Shown piece after piece: positions 5,001 to 63,500 of a stretch of DNA of 64,000 nt. The stretch's first letter is position 1. The number at the start of each line of letters is the position of its first letter. The notes under the pieces were generated by a model, which did not search any database, had not been told where the DNA came from, and saw only the letters and a list, made by a program, of their open reading frames with translations. This DNA is from Girardia tigrina (taxonomy: Eukaryota), in contig MQRK01216387.1 of NCBI GenBank assembly GCA_001938485.1, positions 79,846-143,845 of the forward strand. Direction: 5' to 3'. The position numbers and the translations under genes are program-made.

Positions 5001-6005
5001 TCGTAGCATGCAAGGGGCACGCGGGCAGGTTGGCGTTTATTTCCATGAGGTTCTCTTTGCCTTACTTAAAGAACGTAATGAGAATTTGAACTTAACTATA
5101 AAATAATCATCCCATCTAGAAGCTCAGCCACCAGTTGGGTCATCCTCGTTACTGGTTAAGAACCCGAAGGCGCTCTAATGTTTGCACAACTCGTTGATGC
5201 AGGCAAAGGAGTCGCGTCTGTTCCCCATTGAGATGTAATTGGCTTAGTTTGACAGAGTTGCCGTTGAACTCTAATGGAAAACGGATGGGGGCTCAGAGTC
5301 ATTGTTAATGTTGTTTTGAAGGGGAGCACGACACATGGAAAAAATGAACAGAGAGTGTATAAAAAGTTAAAATATTGATGGATAATATGCGATAGGTCAT
5401 ACAGTAGAGATCTTTGTAGTTACCTACTTAATCAGCAATATATTCATGTAGTGATTCAAAATTATAATCTATATTTATAAATATTAAATATATATTAAAA
5501 TCTGATATTTTTTATTTATAATCAGAATATTATTCGAGAAACCCCCTATAAAGTTAAAGTAATTCTTGAGAAACAGATCTCCGAAGAATCTTCCTAAGAA
5601 TTTGTTGCGAAACTTGCGCGTAAAAAAATATTTTCACAATTGAAATAAAATTGAAGATTTTCTGTGTTGTGTTTCCCAACATTCGTCGTTATAAACATTT
5701 TTCTGAAATACGATCAATATCTGCAATGTATTAAAAATAAAAAATCAAAACGGTGATGTTTATTCTTATGGTACAAATCGAATTTTACATTAAAATATTC
5801 GGTACCATTTTTATTTTGTAAATGATTTAATTTTTTGTTAAAAACACTTTCTTATGGTGTAAATGTTGAAAAAAAATGGTTTGTTGTTTGAATGCAATAA
5901 AACATTGTAAAAAGGCAGTTAATTTTAAAACGATAAATAAATAATTTCCACAATCGAAAGTGTTTTTTTTTTCTTTATTTGTCATTCATCAACTATTAAT
6001 CGAAA

Positions 6006-7007
6006 ATGCCCGTTTCGGATGATTGTGTCGAAATCACGCAACAAATCGACAAATCTGTCGATAGTTCCGGTCTGCCTCGTCCAGCCAGTGTTCTCACCAA
6101 TCGACTTCAATTCATCAAAAAGAAAATTCTTCCGCAACTANNNNNNNNNNNNNNNNNNNNNNNNNNNNNCCATCCGGTCGATCATACGGCGCTCAATATC
6201 CCAGATTATCCGAAAATCGTGCATTATCCAATGGATTTTACCACCATAAAAAATCGATTGATCAAGAAATTCTATTACAACGCCGACGAGTGCATCACCG
6301 AAGTGAGACTCGAGTTCCAGAATCGCTTCATCTTCAATCCTCCAGAAATCGATCTGATCAGCATGACTCTGACGCTCGAGAACATCTTCAACTCGAAACT
6401 CGAAAAATTACCGTCCCAAGAAAACGACATCTCCTGCGGCACCAGCAAAACCAACAGCGCCAAGAAAGACACGAAATCCAGCAGTATCAACAACGATTCG
6501 TCCTCGGAGCCGCCACCAGTGTGCGACATAAAGAAATCACTCCGGCCGACCACTAAGCGCATCAAATCGACCTCGAATTACAACGAAGCGACATCGACCC
6601 ATGCGAGCAATTGTTCGATTTCTCCGTACGCGAAATCCAAATCGAAAAAACGGAAAGTCGAATCGTGTTACGATTTATCGTTCGAGCCCCCAGAACACGT
6701 CAGACGGTCAATAGAGGCGATATTACCGGTCGATTGCGTCGCCATGATGATCGAGCGCGCGTGGAACAAGAACGACGCCAACCGCAACTGGGAGGACAGT
6801 CTGTGTCCCAAGTCCGACGCGATCGAAGAGACTTTTAAAATTCATATTTATTTTAAAATTAAATATAGTTTTTTTATTTCATTTTATATATATTTTATTA
6901 TTGTTGGCATATTTATATATCTATCAGTGTTGTCGTCAAGTCACTATTTTCTCGACTCGAGTCGCCATAAATATTTTACGAGTCACGAGTATAGTCGAGT
7001 CACCTGA
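6006..7007 (+). CDS. BET-family (BRD2/3/4, fs(1)h-like) bromodomain-1 protein, single intronless ORF with one gap; true 3' end uncertain (~6838)
   Basis: LTNRLQFIKK..HPVD..LNIPDYPKIVHYPMDFTTIKNRL..FYYNADECI..FQNRFIFNPP..LENIF follows the BET BD1 consensus. GC-richer coding composition stops abruptly at ~6835. Confidence 0.8.
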   Translation: MPVSDDCVEITQQIDKSVDSSGLPRPASVLTNRLQFIKKKILPQLXXXXXXXXXXHPVDHTALNIPDYPKIVHYPMDFTTIKNRLIKKFYYNADECITEVRLEFQNRFIFNPPEIDLISMTLTLENIFNSKLEKLPSQENDISCGTSKTNSAKKDTKSSSINNDSSSEPPPVCDIKKSLRPTTKRIKSTSNYNEATSTHASNCSISPYAKSKSKKRKVESCYDLSFEPPEHVRRSIEAILPVDCVAMMIERAWNKNDANRNWEDSLCPKSDAIEETFKIHIYFKIKYSFFISFYIYFIIVGIFIYLSVLSSSHYFLDSSRHKYFTSHEYSRVT

Positions 7008-22420: not shown

Positions 22421-25400
22421 AAACTACCATTGAATAAAACTAACAAATATTAAGTTATAATTGCTTATGATGGATTATGAAACTTCGAAACATTTTCAAT
22501 TTGGAAATTTGGTGAGTTCATCAAAATTTTGAATTTAAAATCTAAAAAAAATCAAATATCATATGAATTCATAAATTTTAAAATTAAAATATAATTGTTT
22601 TGAGACAAAATGAAAATAAAACTTTCATTAAACAACAAAATGGTTAAAATTGAAATAAATTAAAAGGCAAATTTTATTTTTTTGAAAATGTAATTTTATT
22701 GAAATGCAAATGTACGTGGCAATATTAATTTAAAAGGTGATTTTGTTAAAATGAAAATGGAAAATAAAAATGGAAATTTAATAAAATATAAATAAAATCT
22801 TTGTACAAAATTTTAATAAAAAGACCTTTATAATTTTATAGACGATTTTAAATTAAAATTCGGAATTTACAAAATAACAATATCTGAATTTACATTTATT
22901 TTTATTTATAATGGTTTGTATAAATAAAAGAAAGTGCTTAAGTTCCTCAAACATATGTATGAAAAATCGTTAATGTGATGGAAATAAAATTTTGTGTCAT
23001 GAACTTGAATTCCGAATTCGAACACAATAATCAATAATTAATTTCTTAAAAAAAGCTTTAACTAAATTATTTTTCAAATGTATAAATTTTTTATGTTCTC
23101 GACGCGTTGATGTCGGTTCGGGTTGGATTTTGCGATCGATTTTAAAGTATCTTTCCTTTTAGCTAGGGCTTTTAAATTTTGAACACAGCTCAAAACTACA
23201 TGACAATAAAATATTTGAGCATATAACGACAACTAAGCCTAGTTTTTGGGCCAGTTTAGATTAATGTTGGCTTTGTTTTCAAGTTTTTTTTACAAACTAA
23301 TGAAACTACTTTTTCTTGAGATCCTGTAAATATAAAAATATAAAATATATAAAATAATCTTACTTGTTGTTCTAAATAAAGATTTTAAAAGATTGAAAAA
23401 ATAATAATAATTAAATAAAAAAGACGGATAATCCCATTTTAACCTTCCCCTTGTTTGAGCAGGTTGCTCAGGGACGCGAGGCGGTTAATTGGGATAATAA
23501 TAAAAAGAAATATATATAAATCTTAGTACATATTTATTATTAATTTTATATTTATTTATAACATCATTAATTTTATCTTTAATTATTTTTATTATATTAT
23601 TATTAGAATTAAAATTAGTATATTCCTTTACGGCGAGTTTTTCCTTCCTCCTCAGAGACCCATTCATTATGAGGGTACTCTTGATTTAAGTGGAGAAGTT
23701 CGCCAAAGGTTTATCTTTATTTTTAAATTATTATTATAATGATAAAAATTGTATTATTATTATTATTATTATTTTAAAGCAATATTATTATTGTAAGTAG
23801 CGTTTATGCCACTTTCATTATTATGACATTCTAAAGTCATAATTTAACACCACAACAATTTATTACTATTCACAATTCATATACTTAAACAAATTTGTTG
23901 TTATTTCAATTATTTCGCCCAAAATTAGTTCATTAAATTTTTTTTGATTAAATTTTGAAAATATACAAAAATTTAAATCTTAAATAATCTTATATTTTTT
24001 TACAAAAAAATTACAAATTTTTAATGTAACCAAATTTTACATTCTTACGAAACTTAATCATAAAACTAATTAATTTAAATTTACAATAACCATTTTATTA
24101 AAAAANNNNNNNNNNNNNNNNNNNNNNNGTTAATTAAAATTTATTTAGCTTATTCTATAACTTTTATTAAAATATGTTAATTGTTATTACTGTAAACATA
24201 TTTTAAATAAGTATTTATTATCATATTTTTACTCTACATTGCAATTGTTAATTTATTTCTTTTAAATTTTCAAATTAAAAAAAATAATAAACTATTTTGG
24301 CGAAACTAACCCCTCATAATTATTATTAATATTATTCTTAAAATAGTATATTATTATTGTTAATAAATGAAAACGTACTTTTTCAATTCAAAGAAAAATG
24401 AAAAATTTTCTACTGGTAAATGCAATATTTACGGAAACAAATTCCCAGTTCATCAAATTGAATCTAATTATACACAATTTGGAATTCCATTTCTTGATAT
24501 GGGCCCTGCGTCTTTGCAGTCGGTTCGGCAGGAGTTGTGGATAAATCTTTATCCTCATTATTCCAGTATCACCACATGCATTACCGATTTCTTTAAATTA
24601 TTGTGTCAAAAAACAAATTGACTAATTAGTGCCACATGCTGGCCTAAATCATAAAAAATAATAAAATATAAAAATAAATAATTTTAATAATTAAAATTTT
24701 AATATATTCTAATATATATATATTTTTTATAAGTGAAAATAAGGTATAAATACCCTCTAAAAAAATTTAAAGATCACACAAAAAAATCAAATAACAATAT
24801 AAAACTTCAAACAAGTTTTCAATCAAATTTTTATTCAGCCTCAATTATTATATCAAAGATCAATGTACAAATTTTGTCATTATCAAATATAAATTTTTAT
24901 AATATTTGTTATTTATCTCAATTGCAATAAATTTAACAGCATCAATTATTGAGCTGGCTTCGCGCTACGAACAAGTAACGCAACCTTCGATTTTAGTTGA
25001 TTCAATTCACAACAATATATTTTCTTTGAACATAATTATTCAAACGACAATTCAGTTATAAATTTACAAACCACCAACATTTTTATTTGTAAGTGGACAG
25101 TTTTGTTTAAATTTATTATTTTCAAAAATTTATCATGGAAAAAAAATTATTTTGGAAAATTTTACTGATTATTTTGATTTTAATGAAATAAAATATTTTA
25201 AAAAAGTGAAAGAGATTAGTTTTAGTTTATGTTTGAGTCGAATAAATAAGGAAAAAAGAAACATAATAAAGTAATCAATACACGATAAAACGTGGTTATA
25301 TAATAAGCCCTTTTTATAAATCTGATTATTATCACTTCTAAGTTACGTTGATAATAGGTTATATTATATTTTGAAAGGTATAAGGTACGAAGTGGTAAAA

Positions 25401-39859: not shown

Positions 39860-40103
39860 TATATTTTTTATATTCAACAAAATATTATTTTCCCAATGTC
39901 AATATTGAACCTTGACACCTTTTTCGTCCCTCTTCATGTTTGATCTGAAGAGAGTAAAAATTGTTGTCTCAAGGAAATCCATAATTAGGGAACGAAAACA
40001 ATTTTGTAATTAGAAATCCTCTGAAAGTCTCAAAAACTATTCAAAATATAAGTACAAAAAATTCCATTATGTGCTAAGGATCGGAAATTAATCATAAAAT
40101 ATA

Positions 40104-41691
40104 CAGGGTGACGCAAAATAAACTCAAAGGTACTTTTCTATTGGATCTTTTTATCCACCTACTTTTTTATAGATAAAGTATACATTTTAGAATCCTGAGC
40201 GTCGCCAAATTCTGATGGTATATAAAAAAATCGAAAAAAACATCAAACATTAAAAAACAAATTTTTGAGACGAAAAATTTAACAAGCTTATTATTCCATA
40301 AAAGTATAACAACAATTAATTATCGAATTTCAACTTGTCCTCCATCTCTAAGAAAACATTCATGCAAACGATGTCTGTAGTCGGCCACAACGCGTTCACG
40401 AAGTGCGCGGTCTCCACGGATTTCATTGCAACTTCTTCAATCGCTGCTCTCAACTCTTCGAGTGTTCTTGGACGTTGTTCGCGATGATAAATTCGACCTT
40501 TCATGTAGCCCTACAACAAATAGTCACATGCTGTAAGATCTGGCGAGCGAGGTGGTCATGTAACTGGAGCAGGATGCGCCCGTGTTCTGCGACCTATCCA
40601 TCGATTTGGAAACTGTTGACCAAACAATTCAAGAAAATCTCAAAGAATGTGTGGCGGAGCGCCGTCATGCTGCTCAATGAGAGAATTGAAATTCGGCCAA
40701 GTTTGAAGCTCTGGAATAACGTGCTCTTGATATAATTCAGTCATCCAACGACCATTGATTCCGCGCTCATTTCCTTGTCGCTCCCAAAAGTATGGGTCAA
40801 CAACACCTTCGACACCAATTCCCATCCAAACTGTCAATTTTTGAGGATGAAGTCGACGAACATCAAACCAATGAGGATTTTCATCGGGCCACATGATCCA
40901 GTCTTGACGATTGACGCTTCCGTCCAAATGAAAGTGGGCTTCATCCGTAAAAAGATTGTTGAGTCTGTTTGCATCTTCATCCAATCAATCCAATTCGGTT
41001 CGAGCAAACTCAATTCGAGCGGCATAGTCGGTTTCCTCCAAGGCATGAGCCATTTGCAAATGATAGGGACGCATCTGTAAGTCTTCTTTCAAAATTCACT
41101 GCAAGCTTCTTTGTGACATACGAACTGTTCCGTGATCGTCTTCTTCGCTGTCAGTGTCGCTAGTTGAAACAAATGGATTGCGTCGAGTTGATATATGAGG
41201 ATTTGCAGTAAATGCTTCACGGACATCTTCAATGGCTTCTATTGTGCGAACACGTTTTGGCTTGTTCTTTCCGCGCTTTCCATGGACACTTCCAGTCGCT
41301 CGAAAACCGTCAATCCATTTTACAATGACTCTTTTTTCCGGAATCTTTGCTCGACCATTTCTTGTTTCTTTCGGAATCGAGTTTTGAGCTGCGCATAATC
41401 ATAGGCTTCCTCAACAAGCATAAAAACGAGATGAGCTTTTTGCTGATCCTTATACGTCATTTGAATCAAATTTTAGGGTAAAACTTTCTAAGTTCATTTA
41501 GAAAAACGCTTGTTAAATTTTTCGTCTCAAATTTTTTTTTAATTTTTGATGTTTTTTATTTTATTTTGATTTTTTTATATACCATCAGAATTTGGCGACG
41601 CTCAGGATTCTAAAAATGTATACTTTACCTAAAAAGTTGGATAAAATGATCCAATAGAAAAGTACCTTGGAGTTTATTTTGCGTCACCCTG
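40104..41691 (-). mobile_element. Long-TIR Tc1/mariner (DD41D/rosa-related) element, decayed copy
   Basis: TA|CAGGGTGACGCAAAATAAACTC... long TIRs; homologous throughout to 57103-58693; several stops and frameshifts. Confidence 0.95.
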
Positions 41692-42401
41692 TATTTCTAT
41701 GCTAAAACAGATTTAGATAGTGTTGTAATATCGAACAAAGTGTTTCTCAAGCTAAAGGTTTACTAAAAGTAACATTGAAATATAAAGACAATAATAAAAA
41801 AATAAATAAATTTTGAGATCCAAATTGTCCTTTTCCAAGACTTGTTTGTTCAGAGTTTTGTTCAAATAGAAAACATGAATTAAAAAAATGAAATATTTTT
41901 TATCTTAAAAAACATTTCTGTGAAATCACCTTGTCATTATACTAAATTATATATAATAAAATTATATTTTTAATTTTAATATAATTATTATAAAATTATT
42001 ATTATTTTATATTTTCGTTATTCTTTTCCTCTCCGTTCCAGTACCTGTAGGAGAGCCAAACTCTAAATGACCGTCACATGTAGGGTTGATTTAGTGTAGA
42101 GAAATCATGTTATTATTAGTTTTGTTATATTATAAAAATTAAATTATAAATTTTGAATTACCTATGACTATATCGATTTTCGGTGTAGTCATAGATAATT
42201 TAGAATTCAAAAGTTAAAAATGTATAAAATGTCAGAATACTAATGTATACTAAAAAAATACCGAGTCGTTTTGTTTATTTGAAAGTGTACTACATATTTA
42301 TTTTTAATGGTAAAACGATGTCTTAACAATCGACTCACGAAATAATTGGATTCGATTTCAACAAATCATATTACATATGTACATATGTTTGTACATATGT
42401 A

Positions 42402-44879: not shown

Positions 44880-46232
44880 ATCACCTCTTCGTCGTTTAAA
44901 TTTTTTCTGGCATAATCACCATTGTCGAAATCATCGGTAAGTTAGTCATTATTTTTTAATTGTTTAATCCATTTCAGTTTATTGATTTCCATTTTCTTAT
45001 GCAATTGTAACTTCTCGTCGGTTGTCATTTTTCTGGATACATCGACATTAATAAGCTGATTGTTAAAATATTTTGAAGAACTTATGTCTTGCGCTGAATC
45101 ATTCCTATTTCTATTACGTACATAATAATCCTTATATTTAGTACCGAAATATTTTTCCCATTTATGCTTTAGAATATCATCAGTAGATTTGTAATGATCT
45201 AAAGGCCAACTAACAATTTGGTGACAAATACCTTCATAAATACCCTTGTCATTGGATCTCAAAATATTTAAATCACCCTTCGAACATTGATTTAAAACTG
45301 ATGTAATTTTTTNNTAATGATGTTATTAAATTACTTGATTTATCCAAACTTAAAATATTGTCTTTCAAAATTAACGAAATCGTTTTCAAGATTACTTTTT
45401 CATTGTTCAATTTCCTTTATACTGGGTAAGGACTTAAATTTTTTATTATCGATATCATTTTTTAAATTTTCAGTAACAAAATTGGAATTCGATTTATTTA
45501 AGAAACATTTTTGCTTTCATAACTAAATTTCTATTTTCTATTTTTCTATTTCTGTTNNNNNNNNNNNNNNNNNNNNNNNNNNNNNNNNNNNNNNNNNNNN
45601 NNNNNNTGATGTTATTAAATTACTTGATTTATCCAAACTTAAAATATTGTCTTTCAAAATTAACGAAATCGTTTTCAAGATTACTTTTTCATTGTTCAAT
45701 TTCCTTTATACTGGGTAAGGACTTAGATTTTTTATTATCGATATCATTTTTTAAATTTTCAGTAACAAAATTGGAATTCGATTTATTTAAGAAACATTTT
45801 TGCTTTCATAACTAAATTTCTATTTTCTATTTTTCTATTTCTGTTGACATAGACGATATCTTAGAATCACTANNNNNNNNNNNNNNNNTCAATCAAAAAA
45901 AATGATTTGAATTCTGGCAAGGAAAATATAGGTCCTTCGCATAATTCTTTCACACATAATTCTTTAAGTAGTTCCTTCTGATTTATTTTCTTTAATTGTG
46001 ACAAAGAATTGAGACTCGAGATCATTGGCTTAATGAATCACTAATCGTTCAAAAATAACATCAAAAAAAAAACAATATACATCACATTCATCACACACAG
46101 GAAAATTTATGTACAAAAAAATAAAAACAGCTAGCGAAACCAAGACTTTGTACAAGAAAAAACGAAAGCAGCACAAAGGTCAGAAGACATACAAACCAAA
46201 CAGTCATGTAGTGTCAGTAAGTAGGGCACTAC
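44880..46232 (-). mobile_element. Unclassified element beginning TGTAGTGCCCTACTTACTGA, copy 2, with a gag/ORF1-like decayed ORF
   Basis: Terminus shared with 31322; ORF remnants including INVDVSRKMTTDEKLQLHKK, resembling LINE ORF1 C-termini. Confidence 0.4.
45318..45846. repeat. ~240-bp near-identical tandem duplication across an N-gap (likely assembly overlap)
   Basis: 45318-45556 equals 45607-45846 apart from one substitution seen. Confidence 0.85.
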
Positions 46233-53569: not shown

Positions 53570-53604
53570 GTTTCGAGATAATAAAAATCCCATCATCAGG
53601 TCAC
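53570..53604 (-). ncRNA. Truncated hammerhead ribozyme motif
   Basis: GTGAC-CTGATGA-T-GGGAT(TTTTATT)ATCTC-GAAAC; 3' half absent. Confidence 0.45.
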
Positions 53605-56869: not shown

Positions 56870-57102
56870 GTCATATAATTTTTAAAAATGCATTTTAAAA
56901 ATAAAAATTTGAAATAGTAAAAAGTCAAAAATATGTAATAGAATATAATAAATTATTTTGAAAGTAAAATAGAATTTATGAGATGAGTTGAAAATTTTAA
57001 TTAACGAAAATTTATTTGAAAATAGGGAGTTGTCATTAAATAAATTTTTTGGTGTTAAAAATGAATTCTGATATTGATGTTGCAACAACTTCTCACATAA
57101 TA

Positions 57103-58693
57103 CAGGGTGACGCAAAATAAACTCCAAGGTACTTTTCTATTGGATTTTTTTATCCACCTACTTTTTTATAGGTAAAGTATACATTTTCAGAATCCTGAGC
57201 GTCGCTAAATTCTGATGGTATATAAAAAAATCGAAAAAAACATCAAAAATTAAAAAAAAATGTTGAGACGAAAAATTTAACAAGCGTTCTTTTAAATGAA
57301 CTTAGAAAGTTTTACCATAAAATTTGATTCAAATGACGTATACGGATCAGCAAAAAGCTCATCTCGTTTTGATGCTTGTTGAGGAAGCCTATGATTATGC
57401 GCAGCTCAAAACTCGATTCCGAAGTGAAGCAAGAGATGGACGAGCAAAGATTCCGGAAAAAAGAGTCATTATAAAATGGATTGACGATTTTCGAGCGACT
57501 GGAAGTGTCCATGGAAATCGCGGAAAGAACAAGCCAAAACGTGTTCGCACCAAAGAAGCCATTGAAGACGTCCGTGAAGCCTTTACTGCAAATCGTCATC
57601 TATCAACTCGACGCAATCCATTTGTTTCAACTGGTGACGCTGACAGCGAAGAAGACGATCACGGAACAGTTCGTATGTCACAAAGAAGCTTGCAGCGAAT
57701 TTTGAAAGAAGACTTACAGATGCGTCCCTATCATTTGAAAATGGCTCATGCCTTGGAGGAGACCGACTATGCTGCTCGAATTGAGTTTACTCGAACCGAA
57801 TTGGATTGATTGGATGAAGATGCAAACAGACTCAACAATCTTCTTTTTACGGATGAAGCCCACTTTCATTTGGATGGAAGCGTCAATCGTCAAGACTGGA
57901 TCATGTGGGCCGATGAAAATCCTAATTGGTTTGATGTTCGTCGACTTCATCCTCAAAAATTGACAGTTTGGATGGGAATTGGTGTCGAAGGTGTTGTTGG
58001 CCCATACTTTTGGGAGCGACAAGGAAATGAGCGAGGAATCAATGGTCGTTGGATGACTGAATTGTATCAAGAGCACGTTATTCCAGAGCTTCAAACTTTG
58101 CCAAATTTCAATACTCTCATTGAGCAGCATGACGGCGCTCCGCCACACATTCTTGGAGATTTTCTTGAATTGTTTGGTCAACAGTTTCCAAATCGATGGA
58201 TAGGTCGCAGAACACGGGTGCACCCTGCTCCAGTTACATGGCCACCTCGCTCGCCAGATCTTACAGCATGTGACTATTTGTTGTGGGGCTACATGAAAGG
58301 TCGAATTTATCATCGCGAACAACGTCAAAGCACACTCGAAGAGTTGAGAGCAGCGATTGAAGGAGTTGCCAATGAAATCCGTGGAGACCGCGCACTTCGT
58401 GAACGCGTTGTGGCCGACTACAGACGACGTTTGCATGAATGTTTTCTTAGAGATGGAGGACAAGTTGAAATTCGATAATTAATTGTTGTTATGCTTTTAT
58501 GGAATAATAAGCTTGTTAAATTTTTCGTCTCAAATTTTTTTTTTAATTTTTGATGTTTTTTTCGATTTTTTTATATACCATCAGAATTTGGCGACGCTCA
58601 GGATTCTAAAAATGTATACTTTACCTATAAAAAAGTAGGTGGATAAAAAGATCCAATAGAAAAGTACCTTGGAGTTTATTTTGCGTCACCTTG
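57103..58693 (+). mobile_element. Long-TIR Tc1/mariner (DD41D/rosa-related) element, near intact
   Basis: ~183-bp TIRs (57103-57285, 58511-58693), TA TSD. Confidence 0.96.
57333..58478 (+). pseudogene. Transposase, 381 codons, one in-frame TGA at 57807-09
   Basis: ORFs 57324-57809 and 57810-58478 are in the same frame; FTDEAHF, QHDGAPPH, WPPRSPDLTACDYLLWG. Confidence 0.9.
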
Positions 58694-59277
58694 TACATTA
58701 CTTATTGTTTATGGTTATAATAGATCATAACGTAACTAAATAATATAAATATCCATAGATTAAAATACTTGAAAATGATTGGAAAAATCACTTGTATGTT
58801 TAAATGTAGTTGCTGTTTAATAAATGATTTGGTTTATTTTTAATTAAGTAACAAAATAGAAAGGTTTTGTCTTAATTAATCAGTGTTTTTTTCAAGAATT
58901 AAACTGTGTTTCCGTTTGATTCTATTTCTAAGGGATGTGACGAGATTGCTACTTCAACCGGGTCGTAAAAAGTATGCAAAATTTGCCAATTTATGAGACT
59001 TAATTAATACGATGTAAATTTTTGGTTTTTTATCAGAAATTATAGTTTGTACATGGATCTTTTTTTCTGAATTTATGAATAGGTTTTTTTGAATATAGGT
59101 TTTTGTTGATAATATTTTTTAGGAATTGTTTTTTATTCATTTTCAAAAATATAAATTGGCTAAATAATTATTTTGGAAAAATATAAAATTTTTAAATAAT
59201 AAAAAAATAGTATATAATTTTGATTAAATTATTTTTTATGTCTATTTTATCTTGATGACACAAACAATGTAATATTA

Positions 59278-60050
59278 CAGTAAAGATTCACAAAATGCAA
59301 CTACGAACACTTCGTAACACTAATTGCAACAAAAATAGTACACCTTATTCATTAAATGCAACTTTTCTCCAAAAAATTTGTTTTAATATTATATTTAGCA
59401 AAATATTAAACAAAAAGTAAATAGTTTAAATTTGAATTAAATTTTTTAGAAAATTTATATATCCATGAATAATAAAAAGAAATTATTCTTTTCTCAGAAA
59501 TTAGATATACTAAATGATATAAAGGAAAATATTCCAGTAAAATTAATATGTGCGAAATATAATGTACATAAAAGTACAATAACACGAATTAGAAACAATA
59601 GCGATAAAATATATGATTTTGCTAAACAGCCTTTTAAAAATCTGTGAAGATAAGCTGTCATCTAATGAGTCCTTAGTTCTTAAATTTTTGGAAAATTTAG
59701 AATCAATATCTATTGATTTTAATGAATGTAAGGAGATATCATTAATCAGTTTATATTGTTATGTTGTGCCAGATTCAGATGTAGAAGATGAAGAAATAAT
59801 GCAATTGGCATCGGGAGCCAATGAAATTTCCGGTAACATAATCACGGAGAAAAATATAGTTGATGAAATTCGTTCTGGCGGTAAAGATCAAAACAATGAA
59901 AGCTTTAATTCAGATATTAGTATCAATAATGTTATCAAAAGTTTAAATATTACCATTGATTATGCAGAAAGCAATTTAACCATTGAAGAAATTCTATTCT
60001 TACGAAGAATACGCGAGAAAATTATTTCTAAAAATTTACAATATAAATAA
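59278..60050 (+). mobile_element. Tigger/CENP-B-like internal-deletion derivative
   Basis: TA|CAGTAAA end; psq-type HTH KKLFFSQKLDILNDI..LICAKYNVHKSTITRI joined to a Tigger-like C-terminus (SDVEDEEI..LRRIREKI); no DDE domain. Confidence 0.75.
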
Positions 60051-60092: not shown

Positions 60093-60540
60093 ATTGGAAA
60101 AAACACGTCATCTTTGTAAGAGAATCCAAGAACATGGTCGGAATGTAGGTGGGAGTAATATTTCAGAACACAGAAAGGGTTGTAAGTCGAATGAAAACAT
60201 AAATGATTTTAAAATTCTGTGTTCTCGTTTTATAAACTATTGGGAGAGGGTGACCTGTGAAGCACTTTATATCAGATCTTTAGATCCTGAGATTAATGTG
60301 CAAATGGGTCTCTCGAAAACCCTATTGAGCGTGTTTAGATGACATAATAATCCATTGATGACATAATCACTGCTTGCCTATATAAGCAGATTTAAAATTC
60401 ATTTTTTTCTTGAGACCTGACGATGACGGTTATACCGTCGAAATTAATTGTCATGAAAAATAAATGTAAATTGATATTATCTTTAAACAATAAAAATAAA
60501 ACAAAAATAATGATCTCGACGAAATTATATTTACAATAAC
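60093..60540 (+). mobile_element. 5'-truncated Penelope-like element (GIY-YIG end + pseudo-LTR)
   Basis: IGK.TRHLCKRIQEH..SNISEH..FKILC..VTCEALYIRSLDPEINVQ; TATA-like CTATATAAG, hammerhead, then AATAAA. Confidence 0.88.
60408..60458 (+). ncRNA. Minimal type I hammerhead ribozyme
   Basis: GAC-CTGACGA-T-GACGGT(TAT)ACCGTC-GAAA-TTAA-TT-GTC; palindromic stem III ATTAAT; predicted cleavage after 60449. Confidence 0.85.
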
Positions 60541-60741
60541 AAATTTTTGTTAACTGTGAAAAAAACTGCCGTAAAGTTATTATTCAATTATTTAGTCTAC
60601 GAAACTGGGTAATATGATAAATTTGGAGATTTTCTTTTTTGTCTTTCTTTATTTCCTGTAGAAACATAAATTGTTTTGTTGATAGTTAAAAGTAGTGTTT
60701 GGATTTAGATAGACTAACAAAAGTACATGTTTGGTACAATT

Positions 60742-61129
60742 CTTAATAAGAAATTTAAAAAATAATGGCATATTTTTATTAAAATCAAGAACGCCATTAA
60801 AATCAAATTTTATTGTCGCAATATATTTAAAAATCGGAGGTGAAAACAACTAATTGTAAAATATTGTGTAGTAATTTTAAAAATTATTGGGAGAGAGTTA
60901 CTTGTGAAGCATTATTGATTAATTCACTTAATCCGTCCATTAATGTACAAACAAGTCTCTCTTCCAATTTGTTGAAAATATTTAATTAGTTATTACGCAA
61001 GATGTTTACATAATCATCAATTTGCTATATATAAGACAGCGAAATTGTTACTAATTCAGCATGAAGATGGTAGAAAATCCACCGAAATATATTGCAACAA
61101 TAAAATTTGATTTTAATTGCGTTCTTGAT
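60742..61129 (+). mobile_element. Second Penelope-like insertion with inverted 5' segment
   Basis: KILCSNFKNYWERVTCEALLINSLNPSINVQ..IFN* (stop 60987-89); 60781-60828 is an inverted copy of 61085-61132; 12-bp direct repeat TTTGGTACAATT at 60730-41 and 61130-41. Confidence 0.85.
61059..61095 (+). ncRNA. Variant minimal hammerhead ribozyme (C3A)
   Basis: GC-ATGAAGA-T-GGTAGA(AAA)TCCACC-GAAA-TATA-TT-GC; palindromic ATATAT. Confidence 0.65.
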
Positions 61130-61618
61130 TTTGGTACAATTATTCGCGGTTTGGTTTATGGATAAGATAAAACAGTGGATGTTATTATGGAGTCTTCTGA
61201 TTATCTTCTATAATTTGACTGCCTTCTTGATCGATATGCGCTTCTTCTTTTTGTTGGTCACAATAGTATTGCAATAATATTCCTTCTGATGCGAATTGAA
61301 TAAATTTCCATAAATTTGGTAAATAAGTAAAAACATTACTTAGGCTTATTTTCAAATTTAATTTATTAATCGATTATAGATAATTTTAATTTATTTTTAT
61401 GTTTTAATTATATTAAAATATTTGGGATCACTGTTTGGTGGCATCGTATCAATTAATATCTCTCAAATCAGTACAGATTTCAAATATTCAATTGATATCA
61501 AAATTATTTAAAATCTTAAAACTTTTGTAAATGTGAATTGGGAACAATAAACGTGTTTAATCTTTTTAATACGATGAAAATTTTCCTACGATAACTTAAA
61601 ATGTAAGACAGCTTAAAA

Positions 61619-62529: not shown

Positions 62530-63500
62530 TATCAGATATAGATCCAGTAATCAGGAATGTAGTGTAAACTAATTCGTATCAGTAGCAGCAAACAATTAAG
62601 AGTTTTTCCAAGTGATATTTAACTTAATTTTTTGATTTTTAATCATTAAAAATGCCTTAATTGGATTTGTCGCACCTCCACTCGCAGCCCGGCTGACACT
62701 TGCATGCGTCTTTGCCAAATCTCTTGTGAAAGCAACACACGTTGCTGTTTGTGCTTTGTGATCGGTTCCGTCCTGATGATTTATTTCTGCTCGATGATCT
62801 GGCTTTATGATTACTGGTGGATCCGTTCTTCTCGATGTCTGCAAACTGGATAGTATTGACGTGATACTCGTAATCTGCGTGAGCACGTCTACATTTTGTG
62901 TTTCAGGTGCGCGTACTGTGACAGGGCTCGGAACAGGTTGGATGCTGACCTGAAAACAACTGTTGTCATTTGATTATTGAGTAAGCCAGCTGTTGTCAGC
63001 TACGAGTGCCGGAGTCGGAAGCTCCTGATTTTCCATGCCAGCCAAGATAGCTTGAGTAATTGGTGGCAATGATTTTAGGAAAAGTCGCGACAAGATTTTG
63101 TTGGTGGGATCCTGTGCTAGTCCAGGTTGGATCTTCTTTAAGTCATTGGTGACCCGCTTCAGGAACTCCGATGGCTTACTTGAACCAAGGATTTGCGTAT
63201 TGAAGTACGCCGCAAATGGGTCCTCAAAAGACGACTCATGGGCGGCGAGAATGATCCGGCCAAGTTCGTCATATGGCTTCTGATGCTGGTACAAATGATA
63301 GGTGTGCTTGTACACCACTTGCATCAGTTCAGCCGGTAAGATCGCTAGAGTATTGAGGAAGAGAGTTGACTGTGCACTGATGCGCTGCATCTTAAACCGC
63401 ATGTCGACTACACTCAACCATCCCTTCGGTGATTTATCACTGTTACTGAAATACGCCGGTGGGGGAATATTCGCAGTGATCGCACTGATACTCGAGTCTT
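62530..63500 (-). mobile_element. Gypsy/Ty3 gag plus protease relic
   Basis: PKGWLSVVDMRF..PYDEL..LGSSKPSEFL..FLKSLPPITQAILA..ALVAD; Zn motif CCFHKRFGKDACKCQPGCEW; LFAATD..FLI.TGS protease remnant. Confidence 0.85.

What the first reader, a model, noticed from the sequence alone, without database searches (positions are those of the whole stretch)
60408..60458. Apparently intact minimal hammerhead ribozyme in a Penelope pseudo-LTR
Seen: complete core CUGACGA/GAAA, a perfect 6-bp stem II, stem I GAC:GUC, and a stem III that is only the palindrome AUUAAU. It lies 75 nt after a GIY-YIG stop codon, between a TATA-like box and AATAAA. Known: Penelope-like elements carry minimal type I hammerheads whose palindromic stem III lets them cleave as dimers. 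Inference: this copy may still self-cleave, at a non-canonical AUU triplet after 60449. The same extra U between CUGANGA and stem II recurs in all four hammerhead-like motifs in this window, suggesting a lineage signature.
Basis: partly seen in the sequence, partly recalled or inferred. Interest (0 to 1): 0.7.

Follow-up and report, generated by a model that had tools for sequence, protein, structure and literature searches.

The report
Penelope hammerhead holding the start codon
This is a real, intact copy of the tiny self-cutting RNA motif that Penelope-type jumping genes are known to carry; its "odd" extra U is likely the middle letter of the element's own start codon, and this lone, truncated copy is predicted not to cut where it sits, so the finding is ordinary.

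Summary
The motif is real and lies as described, in a 367-nt, 5'-truncated end of a Penelope/Poseidon-type retrotransposon (60106-60472). An exact pattern for its core has 5,489 matches in the genome against 0 for the control. Stems I, II and the stem III palindrome covary across families. Neither "odd" feature is odd. In the published alignment, 24 of 56 motifs have U17 (5 read AUU), and 54 of 56 have an extra base, U in 12, across six phyla. Here A9-U-G10.1 spells an AUG that is in frame with the element's ORF in 12 of 13 junction copies of sister families, as published for Anolis PAc; the AATAAA is codons 12-14. This copy's intactness needs no selection: core and stems decay at the flank rate, and 16 of 30 copies are intact. 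It has no same-family partner on its 146-kb contig, folds preferentially into an inactive form, and transcription was not shown. The scan found this kind, start-codon overlap included, before on other DNA and in this genome. Open lead: cleavage would remove cap and AUG, a possible translation off-switch.

The parts
60106..60472 (+). 5'-truncated 3' end of a Penelope/Poseidon-type retrotransposon (family A), lacking the family's downstream tail hairpin
   Evidence: 94-97% identical to the 39 other best-scored copies over this span; most copies extend upstream into EN and RT and downstream into a tail
60106..60342 (+). C-terminal part of the GIY-YIG endonuclease frame with stop codon; the CxxC and YIG motifs are lost with the truncation
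   Evidence: translation; longer copies give Pfam GIY-YIG E=4e-4 and RVT_1 E=4e-6, both below the curated cut-offs
60379..60386 (+). TATA-like box of the pLTR promoter (predicted)
   Evidence: 38 nt before C3; similar boxes 33-40 nt before C3 in most sister families; function not tested
60414..60416 (+). Hammerhead stem I, 5' arm (pairs with 60450-60452); possible weak extension 60405-09 with 60455-59
60417..60423 (+). Catalytic core C3-A9, intact
   Evidence: matches the family majority
60423..60425 (+). A9-U-G10.1: the extra U, forming the likely start codon of the element's ORF
   Evidence: first AUG after an in-frame stop at 60411-13; frame runs into the ORF in junction copies
60425..60439 (+). 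Stem II, 6 bp with 3-nt loop; also codons 2-6
60440..60448 (+). G12-A13-A14-A15.1 and the 6-nt palindrome (60443-48) that would form stem III between two copies
60449..60449 (+). U17, predicted cleavage site on its 3' side; third position of codon 9 (Ile)
   Evidence: position by homology to the published consensus; U, C or A in sister families
60450..60452 (+). Stem I, 3' arm
60459..60464 (+). AATAAA, lying within codons 12-14 (Lys-Asn-Lys) of the open frame
60738..61143 (+). Neighbouring insertion of sister family B: inverted tail piece (about 60738-60828), EN end (60831-60983) and a damaged hammerhead at 61061 (C3 replaced, one stem II mismatch)
53571..53599 (-). Hammerhead remnant of family D, broken off inside the stem III palindrome
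22464..22490 (+). Degenerate hammerhead remnant (G5 replaced, palindrome broken)

Best explanation
This is the minimal type I hammerhead of a Penelope/Poseidon-type retrotransposon, left intact in a young, 5'-truncated, solitary copy; its extra U likely forms the element's start codon, and this copy is predicted to stay uncleaved in place. In a working tandem element, the pLTR promoter would start the RNA a few bases before stem I (inferred), the ribosome would initiate at A9-U-G10.1 (in-frame continuity shown, initiation inferred), and two hammerheads about one element apart would pair through the palindrome, probably helped by the element's protein, to cut after codon 9 (inferred from published relatives). 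Selection acted on master elements (covariation between families, shown); dead copies such as this one decay neutrally (shown for 30 copies).
For: Family membership. Structure under selection: 8 family representatives 93.8% paired, 6 of 12 pairs with two-sided change, covariation 0.455 against 0.168 (0 of 500 shuffles); 13 representatives 97.7%, 8 of 10 pairs, 0.818 against 0.205, including palindrome-preserving changes in stem III. Start codon: 12 of 13 hammerhead-bearing junction copies of families B, E, F, H, I are in frame with the ORF, 9 of them open to the matched N-terminal domain, up to 338 codons; in family A, 3 of 6 junction places run in frame into the conserved N-terminus, one with no other Met for 163 codons. 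PAc has the same layout (PMC11167929). Neutral decay: core 5/330, stems 11/660, upstream 157/9224 differences; 16 of 30 copies intact. No second family-A hammerhead on the 146,067-nt contig. Active fold is 6-11 kcal/mol above competing folds.
Against: No cleavage, transcription start or translation start was measured. U at this place is also kept in family C, whose A9-AUG frame closes after 13 codons and whose open frame starts at an AUG inside the palindrome, and U is the catalytically favoured insertion in a viroid hammerhead (PMC3705267), so the start codon is not the only reason for U. Family A's Inr-like site is only 22 nt from its TATA box. Folding energies ignore Mg2+, tertiary contacts and proteins. 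Family representatives were picked by me from motifs already filtered for a paired stem II, and they are related, which inflates the pairing figures. Clade assignment rests on motifs, not on a tree.
Confidence: 0.82

Rival explanations
1. This very copy is transcribed and cleaves, as a monomer or by pairing in trans with another family-A transcript.
For: All core, stem and palindrome positions match the family majority; the TATA-like box is retained; thousands of potential trans partners exist; AUU and extra U are compatible with activity.
Against: No cis partner on the contig; the neighbour at 61061 has a different stem I and palindrome and a broken C3. Active monomer -3.1 to -4.6 against -12.3 to -15.2 kcal/mol for the best fold, in which the core pairs with the cleavage strand; active dimer -18.4 to -21.4 against -24.6 to -30.4 for two free monomers. 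Published minimal hammerheads are inactive as monomers and weak as dimers (PMC4209133); PAc needs its protein and no RNA-seq reads ended at its site.
Confidence: 0.1
2. The extra U is kept for catalysis or by inheritance, and the AUG overlap is incidental.
For: A-to-U at this position raised the cleavage rate 3-4-fold in the CChMVd hammerhead (PMC3705267); family C keeps U although its A9-AUG frame is closed; about 96% of motifs in this genome have U whatever the family.
Against: In the clade of this finding the A9-AUG is in frame in 12 of 13 junction copies, the other two frames mostly close within 14 codons, stem II length is 15 nt in seven families and 18 nt in a variant, and in some subfamilies no other Met precedes the conserved N-terminus. 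The two explanations can both hold.
Confidence: 0.15
3. Chance resemblance in AT-rich repeat DNA.
For: No Rfam hammerhead hit; stems I and III are very short.
Against: 5,489 against 0 and 39,226 against 500 pattern matches; fixed position after the EN stop codon; covariation across families.
Confidence: 0.01

Closest known systems
Minimal hammerheads (min-HHR) of metazoan PLE pseudo-LTRs (Cervera and De la Pena 2014, PMC4209133)
   Same: Type I topology, CUGANGA-H core, G10.1-C11.1, long stem II, short stem I, palindromic stem III, NUH site, mostly solo 5'-truncated copies (main text parts 1-2 and supplement parts 1-2 read)
   Different: Copy number here is larger (about 39,000 pattern matches, against about 9,000 for Xenopus in that paper; methods and assembly redundancy differ); U is the extra base in about 96% of motifs here
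Drosophila Penelope hammerheads (D. elegans, D. rhopaloa, D. ficusphila rows of Fig. S3)
   Same: 6-nt all-A/U palindrome, AUU site, 2-3-bp stem I, 6-bp stem II
   Different: Their extra base is C, so they have no AUG at A9; loop 2 is longer
PAc (Poseidon of Anolis carolinensis) hammerhead (Frangieh et al. 2024, PMC11167929)
   Same: [quoted passage not shown]
   Different: PAc was assayed (protein-assisted cleavage, dispensable for insertion in vitro); nothing here was assayed. The passages I read do not link the overlap to the extra U or to translation control
Non-LTR retrozymes (bioRxiv 10.64898/2026.07.22.740005, first part read)
   Same: Type I hammerhead with dimer requirement, related to pLTRs
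   Different: Retrozymes are tandem, non-coding repeats; this is a solitary stub with endonuclease-coding sequence

Membership tests
PLE minimal type I hammerhead | Core CUGANGA and GAAA with U16.1 and H17 | tested here: met
PLE minimal type I hammerhead | Extra nucleotide between A9 and G10.1; G10.1-C11.1 pair | tested here: met
   U60424; G-C in 13 of 13 representatives
PLE minimal type I hammerhead | Palindromic 15.2-16.2 and loop 3 | tested here: met
   palindrome kept through two-sided changes in 13 of 13 chosen representatives
PLE minimal type I hammerhead | Covariation in stems I and II | tested here: met
   between families; within family A only scattered pair-breaking changes
PLE minimal type I hammerhead | Located in the pLTR, downstream of the EN stop and upstream of or over the ORF start | tested here: met
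   same sequence found 5' of the ORF in junction copies
PLE minimal type I hammerhead | Self-cleavage as a dimer | not testable with these tools
   only folding energies
Rfam hammerhead families | cmscan hit | tested here: not met
   no hammerhead family at E <= 10; minimal PLE motifs lack the canonical stems
EN+ Penelope-like element | RT followed by C-terminal GIY-YIG EN with CCHH motif | tested here: met
   in longer family-A copies (definition from PMC8557442); Pfam scores are below curated cut-offs; the window copy keeps only the EN end
EN+ Penelope-like element | Direct or inverted partial-tandem pLTRs and a 3' tail | tested here: met
   inverted and tandem pieces in several loci; tail absent from the window copy
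Penelope/Poseidon clade | [quoted passage not shown] | tested here: met
   linker read by eye in L016 and L012
Penelope/Poseidon clade | Placement in an RT phylogeny | not tested
   no tree was built

The most novel reading that the evidence does not exclude
In this Penelope clade the hammerhead is a translation off-switch at the very 5' end of the element's mRNA: TATA and initiator place the cap 3-7 nt before C3, the start codon is built into the catalytic junction, and protein-assisted cleavage after codon 9 removes cap and AUG, giving negative feedback by the element's own protein. Family C reached the same result with an AUG inside stem III.
Probability: 0.3. Interest if true: 0.6.

Novelty: new member of a known kind. 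Interest (0 to 1): 0.17.

Why it matters
As a single copy it matters little: it is one of tens of thousands of known-type motifs. The genome-wide set is useful, though. What Penelope hammerheads do is still open (PMC8557442 says so; PAc cleavage was dispensable for insertion in vitro), and these families give natural variants in which the start codon always lies 5' of the cut site, which makes the off-switch idea easy to test.

Tried and rejected
Rfam cmscan found no hammerhead. Heterodimer with the neighbour at 61061: rejected, stem I and palindrome differ and its C3 is lost. Pile-up of 5' ends at the cleavage site: 0 of the 30 ORF-start loci begin at the base after U17 (small sample, several loci are duplicates). 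Selection on individual copies: not seen (the 30 copies are the top-scoring of 3,213 candidates, so biased to young ones). Transcription: 19 runs were listed, all as contigs, none with raw reads; the four laid are only guessed to be RNA, cover DNA-transposon and other repeats alike, and no listed piece joins this copy to its unique flank, so they say nothing about expression or RNA ends. Universality of the A9 start codon: rejected for family C; none of 30 family-C loci continued into an ORF, and family D was not resolved. Lunse et al. 2017 is not held; I saw only a review's account of it. PMC1636495 has no AUU data, so I have no measured rate for AUU. Horizontal origin of the GC-rich RPL9 piece: rejected after finding an intron-bearing parent in the same assembly. 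Whether the locus lies in a host intron was not determined.

Full report
Observation. The endonuclease stop is 75 nt before C3. Four such motifs with the extra U are in the window; the other three are damaged. Rfam does not detect it, but it is not chance: the exact family pattern has 5,489 matches in the genome against 0 for the control, and a general minimal-hammerhead pattern has 39,226 against 500.

What it belongs to. The stretch 60106-60472 is 94-97% identical to the 39 other best copies scored out of 3,213 candidates. Most of the 29 other copies fetched extend upstream into an endonuclease with CxxC, YIG and two His, and some into an RT (weak Pfam GIY-YIG and RVT_1 hits). The linker has no extra Zn-finger motif by eye, which points to Penelope/Poseidon (definition in PMC8557442, introduction and passages read); no tree was built. 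The window copy is 5'-truncated inside the endonuclease and lacks the 3' tail hairpin. A sister-family insertion follows at 60738-61143. The host looks flatworm-like: the best named relatives of an RPL9 gene in the assembly are flatworm proteins at 60-63%.

Structure is under selection between families, not within. One common natural variant per family was aligned. For 8 ungapped representatives, 93.8% of cells pair and 6 of 12 pairs change on both sides (covariation 0.455 against 0.168, 0 of 500 shuffles; slid controls at most 0.22). For 13 representatives the figures are 97.7%, 8 of 10 and 0.818 against 0.205, and the stem III palindrome survives two-sided changes. I chose these rows from motifs filtered for a paired stem II, and they are related, so the figures are generous. 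Within family A, core (5/330), stems (11/660) and upstream sequence (157/9224) differ from the majority at the same rate, and 16 of 30 copies are fully intact. The window copy has 5 private changes, none in the motif. Its intactness is what youth predicts.

The supposed oddities. Cervera and De la Pena 2014 (PMC4209133; main text parts 1-2 and supplement parts 1-2 read) list an extra base between A9 and G10.1 and an NUH site in the consensus. By my hand count of their 56 rows, 54 have the extra base (U in 12, from cnidarians, rotifers, flatworms, a fly, nematodes and a mollusc), 24 have U17 and 5 read AUU; three Drosophila rows share the all-A/U palindrome and short stem I. So neither feature is a lineage mark. 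In this genome U does dominate: 1,751 of 39,226 matches have another base. H17 is U, C or A among sister families.

The extra U completes a start codon. A9-U-G10.1 reads AUG, the first after an in-frame stop at 60411-13. In family-A copies that continue into the ORF (6 places; two share flanks), 3 run in frame into the conserved N-terminus, one through a point stop and one with no other Met for 163 codons; the other 3 break earlier; the second AUG at 60453 is replaced in 4 of 6. I then fetched 40 of the 150 hits, chosen from non-A families and half of them for long open frames. A loose scan flagged 15, of which 2 were spurious; 12 of the 13 real hammerheads have the A9-AUG in frame, 9 open to the matched domain, up to 338 codons (homology of A and B N-termini). 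Three more have damaged cores with the same in-frame AUG. The tails of these families translate to similar peptides in this frame while the other frames mostly close early. H17 is the third position of an Ile codon, and the AATAAA lies in codons 12-14. Anolis PAc has the same layout (PMC11167929, first two parts read). Limit: family C keeps the U, but its A9 frame closes after 13 codons and its open frame starts at an AUG inside the palindrome; U is also the favoured insertion in a viroid hammerhead (PMC3705267, passage). In both layouts the presumed start codon lies 5' of the cut.

Promoter. In 7 of 13 rows tested, a TATA-like box lies 27-33 nt before an initiator-like A placed 3-7 nt before C3 (consensus motifs recalled, no chance control). 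Family A fits poorly (22 nt). The mRNA of a tandem element would then begin with the hammerhead. This is inference.

Would this copy cut? Probably not. The 146,067-nt contig holds no second family-A motif (gaps of N excepted). The active monomer scores -3.1 to -4.6 kcal/mol against -12.3 to -15.2 for folds that pair the core with the cleavage strand; the active dimer scores -18.4 to -21.4 against -24.6 to -30.4 for two free monomers (tertiary contacts and Mg2+ ignored). Published minimal motifs do not cleave as monomers and cleave weakly as dimers; PAc needs its protein. Expression could not be assessed.

Mechanism and status. Shown: motif, family membership, covariation, neutral decay, in-frame AUG. 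Inferred: transcription start, translation start, dimer pairing and protein-assisted cleavage in master elements. Speculative: cleavage as a translation off-switch. Searches for Penelope with hammerhead and 'start codon' plus 'overlap' or 'initiation codon' returned listings that I did not read for this point, and the PAc text has no occurrence of 'translation'; Lunse et al. 2017 could not be read, so the idea may be in print. I noted the start-codon reading before consulting earlier scan notes, which report the same in this and other genomes.

Verdict. A new member of a known kind; interest 0.17.

Noticed in passing
G000:C45977, C27166, C169216 (L249, L250, L200/L248); parent in G000:C87249 (L252): A spliced copy of a GC-rich RPL9 (uL6) gene (GC3 0.92) is joined in frame to a family-I Penelope ORF at about codon 29 in three contigs with the same junction. 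The parent carries a 51-nt GT-AG intron that the copies lack. RPL9 pieces occur in 33 matches genome-wide. Likely a host mRNA captured by template switching during retrotransposition; not horizontal transfer.
   Followed up: partly
whole genome G000: About 39,000 minimal-hammerhead pattern matches (control 500), at least 12 families with four main palindromes; assembly redundancy may inflate the count.
   Followed up: partly
L105, L266-L294: Family C copies end at a fixed tail followed by (TA)n, and their open frame starts at an AUG inside the stem III palindrome; possibly a different PLE clade.
   Followed up: partly
window 57100-58699 and 40098-41695: Two 95-97% identical copies of a Tc1/mariner-like DNA transposon in opposite orientation with about 200-nt inverted ends; the 57-kb copy has a stop at 57807.
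   Followed up: no
window 59340-60050: Internally deleted pogo/CENP-B-like transposon piece directly upstream of the PLE (weak CENP-B_N hit); a 1.8-kb contig in two runs bridges the deletion.
   Followed up: partly
window 62600-63500 (-): Broken frame with a weak DUF7041 hit, gag-like retroelement remnant by appearance.
   Followed up: no
window 6000-7007 (+): Bromodomain-coding exon of a host gene.
   Followed up: no
window 45318-45556 and 45607-45845: Exact 239-nt direct repeat, possibly an assembly duplication.
   Followed up: no
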